Part shown: piece after piece, positions 3,001-18,400 of the stretch
Position numbering within the stretch: the stretch's first letter is position 1
Layout: the number at the start of each line of letters is the position of its first letter
Assembly (NCBI RefSeq): GCF_018977255.1
Contig: NW_024704752.1
Coordinates: forward strand, 14,198,001 to 14,262,000
Origin: Callorhinchus milii
Lineage: Eukaryota
Length of the DNA: 64,000 nt
Reading direction: 5' to 3'
Position numbers: made by a program

Positions 3001-6000
3001 TAATGCCGCTATTTTTTAAACATTCCAAATTATATTCCAGAAAATTGCCTTCAGAGATAGTTTTCGGGTCAACAGAAGTGAGAGTTTCGGAAAATGTCTC
3101 TCCTCCCACTCCCTCACCAAAACTGGAGGAGTGGAGCTGTTGGGGGGTGGGGGGGGGGGGGGGGGTAACAGATAAACAGATTTAAGTCTGTGATTGGACA
3201 AATAAGAACCAGATGGAATAGTATAGAATTAAAGTTTTAAATAGAAGTTCGACAGAGAGAAGGAAAAAAAATCACAAGGTGAGAATTATCATTTATAACT
3301 ATGTATTCTAATTGAAACAATTATAGAAAACTTCATCAACAAACTTTCATGGTGATTATATTTGTATACATTATGAAAATTCGAAATGTATTTATTTTTT
3401 ATGCAGTCAAACTCTTTGTGCAGTTTGTCTCCAGGCTATTGTTGTGGCATTATAAAGAGAGCTTTTTGTACAAATGATTATTTTAAGAACTTGAGGAAAT
3501 GATATGTCTAAAGCTGTGTACAAACCCTAGTAAAAGACTATGCTGGAGAAATAACTCAATGGTTGAAGAAGCTTTGTTTACTTGTGTTTTTGAGTATCGA
3601 GTAGCACAGGATTGGTATTAACTTATGGTGCTGATTGTGTTTAATTTTGAATACGGTCTCACTGCGAATGTTTAGAGATGTACAGTGTTTCCTGACCAGA
3701 TGTAGAAGCACAGAAGTTGTGGGCTCACCATGTGCAAGCCTTTAGAGTGAAGATATTATCGGTCACACTGATCACAATGTGGAGGCAACAACATGTAACA
3801 GGAGTGAAAAAAAACAAAAGGCAACATACTGCAGATGCTGGAAATATGAAATAAAATCTTAACAACAACAACCAAAATTCATTTATATAGTGCCTTTCAC
3901 GTCTGGAGGATGTCCCATAAGGCACTTATGATCCAAATAAAGAAAATTTGAAAAACACAGCCATAAAGTTAGTTTAGATTCAGCAACGTTCAGCCAGAGA
4001 ACCTCAATGCAACATAGATTTGAAGAAAATGTATGCAGTAAAACCTCATTGACCAGTGAGACATCAGTATTGTTCCTGTATTATATTCACCACAAGATAA
4101 TTAACATTCATAACAGCTAGTGATATTCTGATACTTTAGTGCGAACAGGGCTATTGGCCTAGTATACTTACAGGCTTTTTTTTGCTACTCAATACTTAAA
4201 AATACAAGTAGAAGAAGCCTTCTTCAACCATTTGTTATTTCTCCAGCATGGTCTGTTTATAGGGTTTGTACACGCTTTGACATATCACTTCCTCAAGTTC
4301 TTAAAATGATCAATTGCGCAAAAAACTCTCTTTATAACTCCCCAACAATAGCCTGGAGACAACCAGATGTCTGACACATGCAGAAACCCATCACCATGCT
4401 CAACAGTACCCAAATCAAACCGAGAATTCAATGAATCATATCTACACATGGGAATTCCAGAGGTAGATTGTTGGAATATATTGTGCTCTCTCTCTCCCTG
4501 GAGGTGGATGGGTACATAAGGGTCAGGAGGATAAATGCACCACATGGACTGGTATTCAACAATACAGACCAGACCACCCTCTTGGTAGGTCAGTGGATAA
4601 ATATATCACCTGGCGTGGGTAGTTTGGAAAGTGAGAGGTGAGCTTCTTGTTTGTACGACTCTCATCGCAACGCCCAACCCTGTCCTCACCCAGCATTCAG
4701 AATTGTGCACTTTTTTGAACAGAAGTCAATGGATAATATTAAGAATCAAGAAGAAGAATTGAGTTTTTCAAGTTTTCTTATCTCAAGGCAACGAGATCAG
4801 CTGTTCTCACATCCTCTCTCTCACCCCCCAACACCCCTGCCCCCCACCCCAACCCCAGATCATGCAACGTCCATGATCTCTAGGTGTGGCTTTGTGGAAA
4901 CAAACCGCGTTGAGTCTTTCTGTACTCCAATTAAAAAGTTCTGAGAATTGAAATGAGCTGAATTTGCGTTTTGGATTTTCGAAGATGCAAAAACTGCCCT
5001 TAGATGAAACTTAAAAGTAACACCTTTTGGTACTAGACGCTTCAGTAACCAAAGATCGCTTTCCTGTGTTTAAGAAGCTTTAAGAAAGGGGAGCTGTTCA
5101 CCACTAAGTACATCAACCAAACGAATTCAGAACTGCAGCCGTTCAGAAGAGACAAGAACAGGGCTCCACAATGTTTTATCACTCCAAGAAAACTCTCCAG
5201 ATCACAGTTCTTGTCGTCCTCTTTGCCATTGTCTTGGGGTCCGGTAACTCATGTAAGTTTTATTTTTGGAATAGTTTGTAATTTCAGTACATTTGATCAG
5301 CTTGTTTTACCCTAGGTGTGTGTAAAATTTTGATTTCTAGATCGACGCCCAACCAAGGTGACCACAAACTGCTGCAAGCAAGTCTCTGGGAGGCGAATCA
5401 TGTATAATGTTACACATTATACAATTCAGAATGGAATGCCTCCTTGTGTGGAAGCTGTAATGTAAGCAACACTTTCTAATTATTTTAAATCGAGCTGATT
5501 ACAATACTGTGAGTTCAAAGACCCATCGTGCGGCTTCAACCCACAAGCGACACAGAGGCTGAGCCAGGCTGATAAAATGGTTTTGTTCCAAATATGCTAC
5601 GTAACGTAGACATTAAGCTACGGTCTCAAAAACTGGAAAGTCCATGCTGTTTAAGCAACAGCCCATGACTAAGACTGTGATGTAATCACAATGCACTGTT
5701 TCAATAGTCACATTCACAGCTAACGTGTTCCCAGTTCCCAGCAGTGACAGGAATTCTTCCATGCATAAGAGAACATTATTTAAATTATACTCTTCATTCC
5801 CCTCCACCCCCCAACACAATAATCTAGTCCTGTGTTTGCATGTACAATAACACCAGATCAGGAGCAACAAGTATATTAAAACAAAATTCAATCTAAACGA
5901 ACTGTTAATAATTCTCCATTTAGCAAAATACTGTAGTAACAAAATTGCAATGTTGTGTTTTGACTACATCAAATTTAACAGAACACAGACATTTGTTTGG

Positions 6001-15400: not shown

Positions 15401-18400
15401 CTTTAAACATATTGTTTATGCCACCAGGTCAATTCAGAGATAAGAATGTTGGGTCTCAGAACACGAAAGCACCATTTTCTCATCAAAATAGAAGATTCCT
15501 TTCATATAGTCACATGCAAGTAGTGTCATGGGACCTTTGATGTCCACTTGAACAAGCACATGGGGCCTCAGTTTAATGTCTTGTTCAAAGGCTTAACAGA
15601 AACTGAGTGGAAAGAATCCTGCTCCTTAGTAACTGGTCAACTGCGTGTGGAGTACTGTCAATCTGCCTGGCTCAGGAAACAGACAGCCAAGACCACCACA
15701 AAGGATCAAGTCAATTCTGATCTTCCATTGCCAACCATATCACCTTAGAACCAACTCAGCCCCAGAGAGGCTCTGTTTTCTTCTCCCCACCCCTGCCCTC
15801 TCCACATTCCCCCACAGTAGGATAGAAGAAAATAGATCAATGACAATGAATGACAAAGTTGTATTTCAATCAAGTTATCATTAAAGTAATAACGAAAATA
15901 TCATGGGAAATCTTGATAGCCTTAAGAATAAGGGGATCAATTTTTTTTAACTGTTACCCTACAAGAGGCATTGACACTGTATATGTCAGGCACCAAGACA
16001 CCATCATTGGGACTCTGAGTGACCTTCGAGCGTGCAGTATAAATGGGACTCAACCCGCTCTAGACACCACCTGCTACAAGCAAAGGCACTTTCAGTCCAA
16101 CAGGATTAAAGAAGATAATAATAACAATGCTTTATTTTATGTTTAGATTCTACACCAAAGAGAAGGGGGCAATTTGTGCTCATCCAAAAGCATATTGGGT
16201 GAGAAAGAAGATAAGAGAAATAAAGTAAGTAAGGCACGCAATGCGATATTGTCCGATGGCCTTTCTAATACTCTTTATACTGTGCATTTGGTGCAAACGC
16301 TGGGCCAAGATTCTTGGTATACTAAAGCTACTAGTGAGGGCTGATCATATGAGCAACTGAGAGAAGCTCTTTGTGTTTTTCTTTGCCACACTAACAGTGT
16401 AATTGCCACTGACATAATGCTTGCTTTTTAACTTGCAACTCATACTTCAGTCCAACAGGATTAAAGAACGCAGATGTCTAGTCAATGTGAAGCCATCAAC
16501 TAACAAAGCTGATCAAGTACTAGACTGCATCGCGAGAATATTATTCTAACCTTGCATGGATCTCAGGCCATTCTGAGGTTTGTTAACTGCAATTTTGTGT
16601 CTAAAGCCTCTTCCTTTACCTAAACAGTTCCCCTGCTCATCATGCCAAAAAGATCAAGTAAGCTGCTTCGCCAAAACATGATGGAAATGAAAAGTCCAGC
16701 AAAGCGCTCTCTGCAGCAGCATCTTTCATCTGAAATTACAGATATTATTTAATATTATGTAATTGCTTCTGTAGTATGTTTAATGTAAATTATTGTAAAT
16801 TGAATATGTAACTCATGTAAAATGATTTATTTTAGTGTGTACTGAACTCTGTAATGTCAGTTTGTATGTCCGTTATTGCCATTGTATAGGGATCTGTACC
16901 AATATCAAATGGATGTCACCCTCCTGTCAAAAAAAGTAATATTGCAAAACAAACTGACATCAGTATGTCTATATACATACTGTTTACCTAGCAATAAGTA
17001 GGAACCCAGTTGTTAGTCGATTGGAGGATTGTTTTTCCGAGGTTAATAATCCTTAAAAAATAATAATTTGGTCATTCAATCCACGACTGTTTGTGGGACA
17101 TTGCTATGTGTTTCATCCACAAATATACATTTAATTCACTTTACAGTATATTCTGTGAAGCGCTTTGAGACGTCTTGAGACCTGAAAAGCGTAATATCAA
17201 ATGCAAGGATTATTATCGTTATATAAAGCTGCAGTTGTATTCAAATTTTTATTACTGATTTGATTTTGGATGTGCCTTGAGTGAATGTAAACTGTGCAAT
17301 ATTGCTGTAATTCATTCCTTCCTTCACTCTTCAGCCTTTCCTAAAACTATAAGTTTTGAACTTTTGTAAGTCTTTACTACGTCTGTTCAAGAATGCTATT
17401 TTTCTCCTTTCAACCGTTCTCGTGCAATGTATTTAATGTCCCTGCAAATAAAACAAGTTAAGTTTAATGATAATAGTGACATGTGATTGACTTTAAAGCA
17501 AGGGGTTAATGAAGAAGATATCAATAAAAAACAAAGTTTTCATTTATGCTGAACACACTACTTTAGAAACACAACAGAAAGAGTTCTCAGGAACGTTCCT
17601 CATAGAAAGAGATGCAAAAGAATCACTTCCATTTCTGGAGGTCATTGTGGTTACCACATGTGGCTTGGAACTGCTCGTCTCTTTGTGTTCGGAGCCTTGT
17701 CATTCAAAATAACATAAGATTGGTTTGGATAAAGAAGGCCATTTATCGCATCGGTTCTCATCCTTCCAGAATACCCTTAGGCTGCTTTATAAAATCACAA
17801 TTTCAGATACTATGCCTTGCAGTGTTTCCTAAACAGAGTAATATGCCTTTTGGTACAGTCTTGTGACTTGGCGTGCTGAATAGAAAGCCATATTTGCACT
17901 TCATGCATTCAATACAAGAACAATTCTTCATAATACCTTGTATTAATGGGAAATAGGGTATTTTTATCATTATTATTATTACAGCACAACCTGAAATCAT
18001 CAGCAACAATTGCATAGTATCACCACCTACACCATATGAATTATATTTTATAATTATTTTTGAATCATTTTATACTGCTGTGATATTGCATATTTCGTGG
18101 CTATTTGTTGTAAAATGTACAATATAAAAATAAGATGTGCTGCTTTCAGAATCTGTCGGGAATTAACTAAAAGTATTGTGCTGGATTTGATTTTGAGGCT
18201 CTGTGGTCATTGAAGTGTTAATTCTGTTGAGAGTATTACATTGAACCTCTGTTCTAAAATTCACCCCAAAACTTCCCTGTTTATGCTAGTTAATAATATT
18301 ACCCACTGCAGTAAAAGCAAAACAACTGTAGCTAACGACAGTACTCAAAGTTGTTAGCAAGTGGAGCTCTTGCAGCTCAGACCTATGTGTGATGTATCTT

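What the first reader, a model, noticed from the sequence alone, without database searches (positions are those of the whole stretch)
5171..16661. Two CCL34-type ('teleost-specific') chemokines in a probable cartilaginous fish, linked to CCL20
Seen: mature N-termini YRRPTKVTTNCC and YLRPSSVTTSCC, plus Y-x-IQ-x-x-x-x-PC-x-x-AVIFYT and no DCC motif, clearly unlike genes C/D/F. Recalled knowledge: zebrafish CCL34-group proteins have an N-Y-R-R-P-T-x-V start and a QNAL-x-PCV-x-AI-x-FYT motif, and lie near ccl20 genes. Inference: if the host is a chondrichthyan, this subfamily and its CCL20 linkage date to the jawed-vertebrate ancestor and were lost in mammals. The receptor is unknown.
Basis: partly seen in the sequence, partly recalled or inferred. 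Interest (0 to 1): 0.75.

Follow-up and report, generated by a model that had tools for sequence, protein, structure and literature searches.

The report
Elephant shark CCL34-like chemokine pair
Two neighbouring chemokine (immune-signalling) genes of the elephant shark, already described from cDNA in 2012, belong to an old fish-and-frog family that sits beside CCL20-type genes and still has no known receptor.

Summary

The host is a cartilaginous fish. Gene A matches UniProt K4G894 of Callorhinchus milii at 105 of 106 whole codons.

Downstream, in the same orientation, lie three CCL20-type genes (C, D, F) and one CCL20-type pseudogene (E). All six share the exon-3 splice donor position and phase.

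A groups with a zebra shark protein (98/95) and, more loosely, with frog and fish proteins that carry the same Y-R-R-P-x-K-V N-terminus.

The core claim is not new. Tan et al. 2012 reported two elephant shark chemokine cDNAs, 41% identical, whose only orthologue was zebrafish CCL-C24j. A and B are 38-40% identical.

"Teleost-specific" is outdated: Xenopus has ccl34a/b in a cluster with xcl1, xcl2 and ccl20a/b. No alignment-based tool result confirmed the name CCL34.

The receptor is unknown. An XCR1-type receptor is my best guess, by inference only.

The parts
5171..5252 (+). Gene A exon 1: start codon and signal peptide (MFYHSKKTLQITVLVVLFAIVLGSGNS plus the first base of the Y codon)
   Evidence: 27 of 27 codons identical to K4G894_CALMI. 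GTAAGT donor.
5341..5461 (+). Gene A exon 2 (121 nt): conserved N-terminus (Y)RRPTKVTTN, the CC pair, N-loop, first strand and third Cys (PCVEAV)
   Evidence: 38 of 39 codons identical to K4G894; the window has Y where the cDNA protein has F49. AG/GT boundaries.
7148..7225 (+). Gene A exon 3 (78 nt): (I)FYTSEIGAICSNPTLLWVARKIKMI, with the fourth Cys and the start of the C-terminal helix
   Evidence: 25 of 25 codons identical to K4G894. Pfam IL8 is weak on this piece alone (E 0.11). Phase-2 GTAAGT donor.
7529..7577 (+). Gene A exon 4: C-terminal tail (E)NKIAAARGNDRAIAD and stop codon
   Evidence: Found from the C-terminus of K4G894. 15 of 15 codons identical.
14987..15071 (+). Gene B exon 1: start codon and signal peptide (MQCLLDRRLTHIALLVMVFAFITVVGGN plus one base)
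   Evidence: GTAAGT donor, same phase as gene A.
15267..15387 (+). Gene B exon 2 (121 nt, the same length as in A): (Y)LRPSSVTTSCC...HYRIQKALKPCIAAV
   Evidence: Pfam IL8 E 0.0095 on the exon alone. The best local match among the 144 proteins held is the zebra shark protein P0002, 64% over 39 residues.
16147..16224 (+). Gene B exon 3 (78 nt): (I)FYTKEKGAICAHPKAYWVRKKIREI
   Evidence: Pfam IL8 E 1.7e-4, 22.1 bits, above the 21.3 cut-off. Phase-2 GTAAGT donor.
16628..16661 (+). Gene B exon 4, tentative: (N)SPAHHAKKIK and stop codon
Evidence: A second acceptor at 16451 would give NPTGLKNADV. I saw no cDNA for B, so the choice is open.
28242..28887 (+). Gene C, CCL20-type (exons 1-3: 28242-28335, 28460-28577, 28807-28887); DCC motif, CRIDAI, FHTKKGRSLCADPKQGWV
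   Evidence: Pfam IL8 E 2.1e-6 on exon 2. Best local matches are the frog DIDAI-type proteins P0144 and P0129. Exon 4 was not located.
42951..43652 (+). Gene D, divergent CCL20-type (exons 1-3: 42951-43032, 43159-43270, 43575-43652); DCC, CDIDAI, but LQTFGGLQYC in place of F[HY]T
   Evidence: Pfam IL8 E 6.3e-5 on exon 2.
46000..46863 (+). Gene E, CCL20-type pseudogene (exon 1 from 46000, exon 2 46194-46305, exon 3 46787-46863)
   Evidence: Exon 2 has DSC instead of DCC and an in-frame TAG. The conserved ICANPKAKWV of exon 3 is out of frame with exon 2.
55896..56996 (+). Gene F, CCL20-type (exons 1-3: 55896-55965, 56081-56195, 56919-56996); VDCC, CDIDAI, FYTVKRREICANPNAGWV
   Evidence: Pfam IL8 E 2.5e-6 (exon 2) and 1.8e-6 (exon 3). 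Exon 2's best solved-structure matches are mouse MIP-3alpha/CCL20 (28.5 bits) and human CCL20 (25 bits).

Best explanation
The window is part of a chemokine gene cluster of the elephant shark, Callorhinchus milii (or a very close relative).

Genes A and B are two transcribed four-exon genes for secreted CC chemokines. They are most probably the cDNA pair JX052420 / JX053182 that Tan et al. described in 2012.

They belong to an old jawed-vertebrate family. Its members include a shark protein, zebrafish CCL-C24j (by my recall now a CCL34b gene) and the frog chemokines with a DYRRP N-terminus. The family's hallmarks are a fixed 10-residue N-terminus, Y-R-R-P-[TSI]-K-V-x-x-x, before the CC pair, and the stretch Y-x-x-Q...PCV-x-A-[VI]-I-F-x-T.

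The family lies head to tail with CCL20-type genes and shares their exon plan. The simplest history is tandem duplication of one ancestral four-exon gene before cartilaginous and bony vertebrates split.

How it works:
- Shown: a signal peptide, four cysteines in the CC arrangement, and a confident model of the chemokine fold.
- Inferred from the established two-site model of chemokine action: the globular core docks on the N-terminus of a G-protein-coupled receptor, and the conserved free N-terminus enters the receptor pocket and activates it.
- Inferred, about 0.3: the receptor is one of the XCR1-type receptors, which have no known ligand in fishes.
For: Host and gene A:
- Exon 2 of A retrieves K4G894_CALMI, "Small inducible cytokine", Callorhinchus milii.
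- All four exons match it: 105 of 106 whole codons plus the 3 split codons.

Prior report:
- Tan et al. 2012 (I read section 21 and Table 7) describe two elephant shark chemokine cDNAs that are 41% identical.
- One is expressed in gills, intestine and spleen, the other in spleen.
- Zebrafish CCL-C24j is their only orthologue.
- A and B share 42 identical residues over 105-110 positions, or 38-40%.
- In Nomiyama 2008, CCL-chr24j is a 4-exon, 98-residue gene in the chromosome 24 cluster (table passage).

Family:
- A HMMER scan of 1.84 billion representatives with K4G894 gave 135 proteins at E <= 0.001 and 25 at E <= 1e-10.
- Named relatives are a zebra shark protein (53% identity), Xenopus laevis, six other frogs, and the teleost Dallia.
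- In the 37 rows of the motif group, R is at -9 in 30 of 36, P at -7 in 33 of 36, and V at -4 in 30 of 37.
- Chimaera plus shark form a pair at 98/95. They sit with the frogs in an 18-row group at 92/61. The CCL20-type rows are split from all other rows at 100/100.
- The quick tree gives a 37-row motif clade at SH-aLRT 91.

Linkage and shared architecture:
- Six genes lie on the + strand.
- Exon 2 is 121 nt in both A and B.
- Exon 3 is 78 nt in A, B, D and F, and 81 nt in C.
- All six exon 3s end at a phase-2 GT donor 7-8 codons after the WV motif.

Fold:
- AlphaFold2 on a 30-sequence alignment gives mean pLDDT 89.9, three strands and a C-terminal helix.
- The best Foldseek matches are human CCL20 (2hci, TM 0.81 by target) and the reconstructed XCL1 ancestor 7jh1.

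Receptor inference:
- Nomiyama 2013 Table 2 lists 3 XCR1-group genes in elephant shark and 6 in zebrafish.
- The same paper states that XCL1 is missing in fish, that the ancestral XCR1 ligand is unknown, and that CCL34 is among the candidate groups.
- Xenopus ccl34a/b lie beside xcl1/xcl2 and form a clade with them.
- Zebrafish ccl34b.4 marks T/NK cells and NK progenitors.
- Mammalian XCL1 is made mainly by activated CD8 T and NK cells (abstract of PMC6277777 in the listing).
Against: - No alignment-based tool result tied the name CCL34 to these genes. The only tool-derived link is a feature-based Atlas neighbour, ranked third with score 0.91, which is a lead and not an alignment.
- In the careful tree the motif group is not one clade. 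It needs 2 changes and is a single clade in only 20% of bootstrap trees. Only 71 columns were available, and the bootstrap had not settled.
- No mammalian reference sequences could be put into the trees. Membership of the MCP/eotaxin or another mammalian clade was therefore never tested phylogenetically.
- A profile of the family scores almost equally against very different human chemokines: XCL1 ancestor 54.2 bits, CCL7/8 chimera 52.6, CCL8 51.6, eotaxin 51.4, mouse CCL20 50.7, human CCL20 45.3 and human lymphotactin only 39.7.
- The reconstructed XCL1 ancestor also scores well with the CCL20-type exon of gene F (23.1 bits). Its top rank may only reflect a consensus-like sequence.
- Exon-level searches are weak. 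A exon 2 found nothing in Pfam or in the solved structures. A exon 3's best match is CCL5. B exon 2's only match is eotaxin at E 0.17.
- I did not see JX052420 or JX053182 themselves, so their identity with A and B is inferred.
- The receptor assignment has no direct evidence at all.
Confidence: 0.7

Rival explanations
1. A and B are early relatives of the MCP/eotaxin group (CCL2/7/8/11/13) rather than of a CCL34/XCL1/CCL20 lineage. On this view they act through a CCR-type receptor such as CCR4.
For: - Automatic NCBI names of relatives are "eotaxin-like" (zebra shark), "eotaxin" (Xenopus laevis), and "CCL8-like" and "CCL2-like" (frogs).
- The family profile scores CCL7/8, CCL8 and eotaxin within 3 bits of the top hit.
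- For K4G894 alone, eotaxin is second at 24.7 bits.
- B exon 2's only solved-structure match is eotaxin. The match covers the N-terminus and CC region, at E 0.17.
Against: - The genes sit in a tandem array with CCL20-type genes and share their exon lengths, phases and fourth exon.
- From my recall, not tested here: MCP genes have three exons, and human CCL20 has four.
- Nomiyama 2013 Table 2 lists no CCR1/3-group or CCR2/5-group receptor in elephant shark, though from a fragmentary assembly.
- Fukui 2022 treat Xenopus ccl42a-d, not ccl34, as the candidates for ccl2/8/13.
- Automatic names only reflect best hits.
Confidence: 0.12
2. A and B are lineage-specific, fast-evolving duplicates of chondrichthyan CCL20 genes. 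Their likeness to teleost and frog YRRP-type chemokines would then be convergent or retained ancestral character. They would still signal through CCR6.
For: - They lie in the same array, orientation and exon plan as the CCL20-type genes.
- B exon 3's best solved-structure match is human CCL20, at 19.5 bits.
- The best structural match of the model is CCL20.
Against: - The 10-residue N-terminus, which is the receptor-activating part, is conserved in register from chimaera to frogs. It is unlike the short N-terminus before DCC in genes C, D and F.
- A pairs with a shark protein at 98/95, and the CCL20-type rows are split off at 100/100.
- A and B exon 2 match motif-group proteins at 50-68% identity. 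Exon 2 of C, D and F matches the frog DIDAI-type proteins instead.
Confidence: 0.08
3. One or both genes are decaying, unexpressed copies.
For: - The array does contain a pseudogene, E.
- I saw no transcript evidence that names gene B directly.
- The fourth exon of B is ambiguous.
Against: - Gene A equals a cDNA-derived protein.
- Tan 2012 report two expressed cDNAs with the identity level that A and B show.
- B has an open frame, all four cysteines and canonical splice sites.
Confidence: 0.03

Closest known systems
Elephant shark cDNA proteins: K4G894_CALMI ("Small inducible cytokine") and the pair JX052420 / JX053182 of Tan et al. 2012 (PMC3466250)
   Same: Gene A encodes K4G894 apart from one residue, Y in the window against F49. 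The published pair is 41% identical, and A and B are 38-40% identical. The paper already states the zebrafish orthology and an ancient origin.
   Different: The paper gives no genomic arrangement, no link to CCL20 and no N-terminal motif. It calls the genes lost in tetrapods, which the frog relatives now contradict. I did not see the two GenBank records, so the match to B is inferred.
Zebrafish CCL-C24j (CCL-chr24j) and the CCL34 group of Nomiyama et al. 2013
   Same: Tan 2012 name it as the only orthologue. It is a 4-exon gene of 98 residues within a chemokine cluster. Its Atlas neighbours include a cluster named "C-C motif chemokine 34b.8".
   Different: The equation CCL-C24j = a ccl34b gene is my recall, and I found no text stating it. 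No named zebrafish CCL34 sequence was available for alignment or for a tree.
Xenopus ccl34a / ccl34b in the xcl1-xcl2-ccl34a-ccl34b-ccl20a-ccl20b cluster (Fukui et al. 2022, PMC8811506)
   Same: The same kind of neighbourhood: CCL34-type genes next to CCL20-type genes. Frog proteins with DYRRPIKV..CC, including a Xenopus laevis protein, group with the chondrichthyan pair.
   Different: The frog proteins carry a long basic, Thr-rich tail ending in WFPS-T-rich sequence, which A and B lack. No xcl-type gene lies in this 64-kb window. I could not show that the Xenopus laevis protein I hold is the one that paper calls ccl34.
CCL20 (MIP-3alpha)
   Same: Tandem neighbours with the same exon phases and lengths. 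The I-F-[YH]-T...C-[AS]-x-P...WV core is shared. It is the best structural match.
   Different: A and B have a 10-residue N-terminus and NCC/SCC. CCL20-type genes have a short N-terminus and DCC. A and B read PCV/PCI where CCL20-type genes read C-[DR]-IDAI. They are split at 100/100 in the tree.
XCL1 (lymphotactin) and its reconstructed two-disulfide ancestor (PDB 7JH1)
   Same: The ancestor is the best sequence match in the solved structures, both for K4G894 (28.2 bits, E 1.9e-5) and for the family profile (54.2 bits). It shares Y-T-I-Q with gene A. Xenopus ccl34 forms a clade with xcl1/2 and lies beside them.
   Different: A and B keep all four cysteines, whereas XCL1 has only one disulfide. 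Human lymphotactin itself scores low (16.2 and 39.7 bits). The margin of the ancestor over MCP-type chemokines is under 3 bits. The ancestor also matches the CCL20-type gene F.
Eotaxin / MCP group (CCL11, CCL2, CCL7, CCL8)
   Same: A similar N-terminal length and the pattern P-x-x-V-x-T-x-CC, plus AVIF-x-T. Scores are near-equal.
   Different: The genomic neighbourhood and the four-exon plan point to the CCL20 array. This was not tested by phylogeny.

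Membership tests
Chemokine superfamily, CC class (Pfam PF00048, IL8-like) | Four conserved cysteines, the first two adjacent (CC), with spacing that allows C1-C3 and C2-C4 disulfides | tested here: met
   A: NCC...PC...IC. B: SCC...PC...IC. C38, C39, C63 and C78 are invariant in the 30-row alignment.
Chemokine superfamily, CC class (Pfam PF00048, IL8-like) | Significant match to the family profile | tested here: met
   Searched exon by exon. B exon 3 scores 22.1 bits against a cut-off of 21.3. B exon 2 scores 16.5 bits, A exon 3 scores 13.2 bits, and A exon 2 found nothing. 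The public full-length protein K4G894 carries PF00048 in the database's own annotation.
Chemokine superfamily, CC class (Pfam PF00048, IL8-like) | Chemokine fold: N-loop, three-stranded sheet and C-terminal helix, preceded by a signal peptide | tested here: met
   The AlphaFold2 model of K4G894 has mean pLDDT 89.9, strands at 51-57, 66-71 and 76-79, and a helix at 84-108. Foldseek's top matches are all chemokines. This is a prediction only.
CCL34 group (Nomiyama et al. 2013) | Orthology to zebrafish CCL34 genes, shown by phylogeny with named members | tested here: inconclusive
   No named zebrafish CCL34 sequence could be fetched. The indirect links are the CCL-C24j orthology in Tan 2012 and the Atlas neighbour named 34b.8. 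The quick tree supports the motif clade at SH-aLRT 91. The careful tree does not recover it.
CCL34 group (Nomiyama et al. 2013) | Conserved synteny: position beside CCL20 genes, as in Xenopus | tested here: met
   A and B lie upstream of the CCL20-type genes C to F on the same strand. For the Xenopus cluster. Flanking non-chemokine genes lie outside the window and were not compared.
   A has YRRPTKV and B has YLRPSSV. The motif is in register in most of the 37 group rows. That the signature defines zebrafish CCL34 remains a recollection.
CCL20 group | Short N-terminus with DCC, and C-[DR]-IDAI-I-F-[HY]-T | tested here: not met
   A and B lack both features, while C, D and F have them. The tree splits them at 100/100.
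XC class (XCL1/XCL2) | Only the second and fourth cysteines are kept, giving a single disulfide | tested here: not met
   A and B keep all four cysteines. This excludes class membership but not descent from a common gene.
XC class (XCL1/XCL2) | Signals through XCR1 | not testable with these tools
   No elephant shark XCR1 sequence was available, and no binding prediction was run.
MCP/eotaxin group | Clusters with CCL2/7/8/11/13 in a phylogeny; three-exon genes in the MCP cluster | not tested
   Mammalian references could not be brought into the trees. Only near-equal profile scores are available. A and B have four exons. The three-exon plan of MCP genes is my recall.

The most novel reading that the evidence does not exclude
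The YRRP-type (CCL34-like) chemokines are the four-cysteine pro-orthologues of XCL1 and the missing ligands of the XCR1 receptors of fishes.

On this reading, an XCL1-like gene arose beside CCL20 by tandem duplication before cartilaginous and bony vertebrates split. It kept both disulfides and its YRRP N-terminus in sharks, teleosts and frogs. It lost the first disulfide only on the tetrapod or amniote line.

The XCL1-XCR1 axis, which in mammals links NK and CD8 T cells to cross-presenting dendritic cells, would then be as old as jawed vertebrates.
Probability: 0.3. Interest if true: 0.65.

Novelty: already known. Interest (0 to 1): 0.3.

Why it matters
The genes themselves, their zebrafish orthology and their ancient origin were published in 2012. 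As it stands, the finding mostly re-discovers an annotated elephant shark locus.

The window adds three things:
- The pair sits in one tandem array with CCL20-type genes.
- The pair shares their four-exon plan.
- The receptor-activating N-terminus is conserved in register from a chimaera to frogs.

This gives a concrete, testable candidate for an open question raised by Nomiyama et al. in 2013: which chemokine serves the XCR1 receptors of fishes, where XCL1 has not been found?

If the XCL1 reading holds, it would also show what XCL1 looked like before it lost a disulfide and became a fold-switching protein.

Tried and rejected
- **Plain six-frame motif search.** It missed the quoted strings because they span introns. 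Looser patterns found them.
- **Exon-by-exon Pfam and solved-structure searches.** The pieces are too short to place the genes in a subfamily.
- **Word-indexed protein search.** Only 1, 2 and 14 proteins were returned.
- **Dishman et al. 2021 (PMC8017559).** The paper is not held. What I say about it comes from the PDB entry title, the review passages, and recall.
- **Text searches for N-terminal peptide strings.** These found 0 papers.
- **Searches for a statement equating CCL-C24j / si:dkey-25o1.5 with a ccl34b gene.** None was found.
- **Searches for CCL34 or XCL1 in cartilaginous fishes.** Apart from Tan 2012 and Nomiyama 2013, no listed title or abstract dealt with it, and I did not open every listed paper. 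The main text of the elephant shark genome paper does not mention chemokines.
- **Table S2 of Nomiyama 2013.** It may already list a CCL34-group gene for elephant shark. It is a supplement and could not be seen.
- **Careful tree.** It did not recover the motif group as one clade, so I do not claim it.
- **Top rank of the "XCL1 ancestor".** I rejected this as strong evidence after the control with CCL20-type gene F.
- **Pfam on 8 repeat-derived reading frames.** No family matched at E <= 0.01.
- **Complex prediction.** Not run, because no receptor sequence was at hand.

Full report
**What is in the window**

The window has 38-40% G+C in most 2-kb blocks and a single N at 21688, which I left untouched.

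Looser patterns locate two exons on the + strand. They read RRPTKVTTNCC...HYTIQNGMPPCVEAV and LRPSSVTTSCC...HYRIQKALKPCIAAV. Each is followed 0.8-1.7 kb downstream by an exon that begins (I)FYT.

Reading the DNA gives two complete models in which every boundary is AG...GT:

| Gene | Exon 1 | Exon 2 | Exon 3 | Exon 4 |
|---|---|---|---|---|
| A | 5171-5252 | 5341-5461 | 7148-7225 | 7529-7577 |
| B | 14987-15071 | 15267-15387 | 16147-16224 | 16628-16661 (tentative) |

- The Y of YRRP/YLRP and the I of AVIFYT are codons split by introns.
- The apparent stop after exon 3 is the TAA inside a GTAAGT donor, so both genes have four coding exons.
- An alternative acceptor for exon 4 of B exists at 16451.

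**The joined step was left out**

The full product of gene B was never assembled.

For gene A, a public full-length protein returned by a search stood in for the spliced product (see below). This leaves the placement of B resting on its separate exons.

**Host**

Exon 2 of gene A was sent as an unbroken stretch of the window. It retrieved one protein: UniProt K4G894, "Small inducible cytokine", Callorhinchus milii, 109 residues.

All four exons of A match it. Identity is 27/27, 38/39, 25/25 and 15/15 whole codons, and the three split codons agree. The single difference is Y in the window against F49 in the protein.

The host is therefore the elephant shark, a holocephalan cartilaginous fish, or a very close relative. 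Gene A is transcribed. The window is not human.

**Neighbourhood**

Four more chemokine genes lie downstream on the same strand:

| Gene | Span | Type | Notes |
|---|---|---|---|
| C | 28242-28887 | CCL20-type | DCC and C-[DR]-IDAI |
| D | 42951-43652 | CCL20-type, divergent | DCC and CDIDAI, but LQTFGGLQYC in place of F[HY]T |
| E | 46000-46863 | CCL20-type pseudogene | DSC, an in-frame TAG in exon 2, and exon 3 out of frame |
| F | 55896-56996 | CCL20-type | DCC and CDIDAI |

- Exon 2 of F matches mouse CCL20 (28.5 bits) and human CCL20 (25 bits) best among solved structures.
- Pfam IL8 matches the exon pieces of C, D and F at E 6e-5 to 2e-6.
- Exon 2 is 121 nt in both A and B. Exon 3 is 78 nt in A, B, D and F, and 81 nt in C.
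- All six exon 3s end at a GT donor in phase 2, 7-8 codons after the WV motif.

A and B thus share the gene plan of their CCL20-type neighbours. That fits tandem duplication from one four-exon ancestor. That human CCL20 has four exons and MCP genes have three is my recall, not a tool result.

**Relatives**

- With K4G894 as query, HMMER over 1.84 billion representatives found 135 proteins at E <= 0.001 and 25 at E <= 1e-10.
- The word-indexed searches returned few rows: 1, 2 and 14.
- They did name a zebra shark protein ("eotaxin-like", 53% identical), a Xenopus laevis protein, six other frog proteins, the teleost Dallia pectoralis and a gar protein.
- Many unnamed hits share [ND]-Y-R-R-P-[TS]-K-V-T-T-x-CC and Q-N-A-L-x-P-C-V-x-A-[VI]-I-F-Y-T.

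In the 37 rows of the motif group, counted back from the CC pair:

| Position | Residue | Count |
|---|---|---|
| -10 | Y | 22 of 35 |
| -9 | R | 30 of 36 |
| -8 | R | 27 of 36 |
| -7 | P | 33 of 36 |
| -5 | K | 24 of 37 |
| -4 | V | 30 of 37 |

Two of the 37 rows are out of register: one has an earlier CC in its signal peptide, and one has an aberrant N-terminus.

Local BLAST of the separate exons against the 144 proteins held gave:
- A exon 2: 97% to K4G894, and 68% to the shark protein.
- B exon 2: 64% to the shark protein, and 50% to K4G894.
- Exon 2 of C, D and F: best matches are two frog proteins with DIDAI.

**Trees**

Of the 144 proteins I dropped 37. Thirty were longer than 180 residues, mostly multi-domain predictions. 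Seven lacked the full four-cysteine pattern.

- *Quick tree, 107 rows, 70 columns.* It gives a 37-row motif clade at SH-aLRT 91. Chimaera plus shark are at 97, and a frog clade is at 95.
- *Careful tree, 72 of those 107 rows.* I used all 37 motif rows and 35 others that I chose. Another 35, mostly from a large presumably teleost clade, were left out for time.
  - Chimaera plus shark stay together at 98/95.
  - They sit with frogs in an 18-row group at 92/61.
  - The CCL20-type rows are split from all other rows at 100/100.
  - The motif group as a whole is not one clade. It needs 2 changes and is a single clade in 20% of bootstrap trees.
  - With 71 columns and an unsettled bootstrap, deep branches are not resolved.
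- No mammalian references could be included.

**Comparison with human chemokines**

- K4G894's best solved-structure match is the reconstructed "XCL1 ancestor" 7JH1 (28.2 bits, E 1.9e-5). Next come eotaxin (24.7), CCL8 (20.3), CCL20 (20.2) and human lymphotactin (16.2).
- A 30-row family profile gives 54.2 bits for the ancestor, 52.6 for a CCL7/8 chimera, 51.6 for CCL8, 51.4 for eotaxin, 50.7 for mouse CCL20, 45.3 for human CCL20 and 39.7 for lymphotactin.
- The margins are small. The ancestor also scores 23.1 bits with CCL20-type gene F. I therefore treat its top rank as weak evidence.
- The AlphaFold2 model (mean pLDDT 89.9) has the chemokine fold. Its best structural matches are CCL20 and 7JH1.

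**Literature**

- *Tan et al. 2012 (PMC3466250; I read section 21 and Table 7).*
  - They describe two elephant shark cDNAs. JX052420 is expressed in gills, intestine and spleen, and JX053182 in spleen.
  - The two are 41% identical.
  - Their only orthologue was zebrafish CCL-C24j (si:dkey-25o1.5).
  - A and B share 42 identical residues over 105-110 positions, so they are very probably this pair.
- *Nomiyama et al. 2008 (table passage).* CCL-chr24j is listed as a 4-exon, 98-residue gene in the chromosome 24 cluster.
- *The link to the name CCL34.*
  - I could not find text equating CCL-C24j with a ccl34b gene.
Its Atlas neighbours include a cluster named "C-C motif chemokine 34b.8" (score 0.91, ranked third). 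That is a lead only.
- *Fukui et al. 2022 (passages).*
  - Xenopus xcl1, xcl2, ccl34a, ccl34b, ccl20a and ccl20b form one cluster.
  - ccl34a/b form a clade with xcl1/2.
  - CCL34 is therefore not teleost-specific, and its CCL20 linkage is already in print for a tetrapod.
- *Nomiyama et al. 2013 (passages and Table 2).*
  - They count 3 XCR1-group receptors in elephant shark and 6 in zebrafish.
  - They say XCL1 is missing in fish and that the ancestral XCR1 ligand is unknown.
  - They name the CCL34 group among the candidates.
  - Their Table S2, which I could not see, may already list the elephant shark genes.
- *Expression.*
  - Zebrafish ccl34b.4 is a T/NK-cell and NK-progenitor marker (passages).
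  - ccl34b.1 marks a microglial subset.
  - Mammalian XCL1 comes mainly from activated CD8 T and NK cells (abstract in the listing).

**How it most likely works**

*Shown.* A and B are two intact genes for secreted proteins with a signal peptide, four cysteines in the CC arrangement and a confidently predicted chemokine fold. At least gene A is transcribed.

*Inferred from the established two-site model.* The folded core binds the receptor's N-terminus. The free 10-residue N-terminus, conserved in length and sequence from chimaera to frogs, enters the receptor pocket and triggers signalling. Such conservation argues for one conserved receptor.

*Inferred by elimination and neighbourhood.* The receptor is an XCR1-type receptor, with a probability of about 0.3.

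*Rivals.* These are an MCP/eotaxin-like lineage using a CCR-type receptor, divergent CCL20 copies using CCR6, and decaying unexpressed copies.

**Verdict**

- The main claim was published in 2012.
- The new increments are the tandem linkage to CCL20-type genes in a cartilaginous fish, the shared four-exon plan, and the in-register conservation of the N-terminus.
- The boldest reading still open is that this family is the four-cysteine forerunner of XCL1 and the fish ligand of XCR1.

Noticed in passing
window 46000-46863 (+): Gene E is a CCL20-type pseudogene between D and F. Its exon 1 (MTALSSLKVPVWLSLLVLTMLNS...) resembles those of D and F. Exon 2 (46194-46305) has DSC instead of DCC and an in-frame TAG. 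The conserved ICANPKAKWV of exon 3 is out of frame with exon 2.
   Followed up: yes
window 8765-8835 (+), 14478-14549 (-), 25766-25836 (+), 30901-30971 (+): Four tRNA-Ala(TGC)-like sequences were called by ARAGORN. Each sits in a repeated element whose translation recurs across the window, for example [23 protein letters not shown] near 8900, 14420 (-), 25911, 45188 and 58757 (-). They look like copies of a tRNA-derived SINE. Two of them flank gene B's upstream region.
   Followed up: partly
window 11305-12000 (-) and about 47600-49500 (-): Long open frames lie between the chemokine genes. One is 231 residues; the others are several of 109-161 residues in a block that is G-rich and has 44-50% G+C. 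They look like retroelement remains. None matched a Pfam family at E <= 0.01.
   Followed up: partly
window 5403-5405: There is one amino-acid difference between the genome and the cDNA-derived protein K4G894. The window has TAT (Y) where the protein has F49. This is either a polymorphism or a sequencing difference.
   Followed up: yes
window 43575-43652 (+): Exon 3 of CCL20-type gene D reads (I)LQTFGGLQYCTNPKRTWV. It lacks the F-[HY]-T-x-K stretch kept by A, B, C and F. D is open but unusually divergent in the second and third strands.
   Followed up: no
proteins P0054, P0129 and P0144 (Hyperolius riggenbachi), not in the window: One YRRP-type frog protein and two DIDAI (CCL20-type) frog proteins are reported on a contig of the same length, 503,132,392 bases. 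This is consistent with the same linkage in a second frog, though only at chromosome scale.
   Followed up: no
proteins P0138-P0143, P0020, P0030, P0035 and P0054 (frogs), not in the window: The frog members carry a long basic tail that ends in a Thr-rich stretch after a conserved WFP. A, B and the shark protein lack this tail. It recalls, from memory only, the Thr-rich tail of mammalian XCL1.
   Followed up: no
window 20476-20847 (-): A reading frame with a run of about 20 tyrosine codons marks a trinucleotide microsatellite next to another copy of the SINE-like repeat.
   Followed up: no
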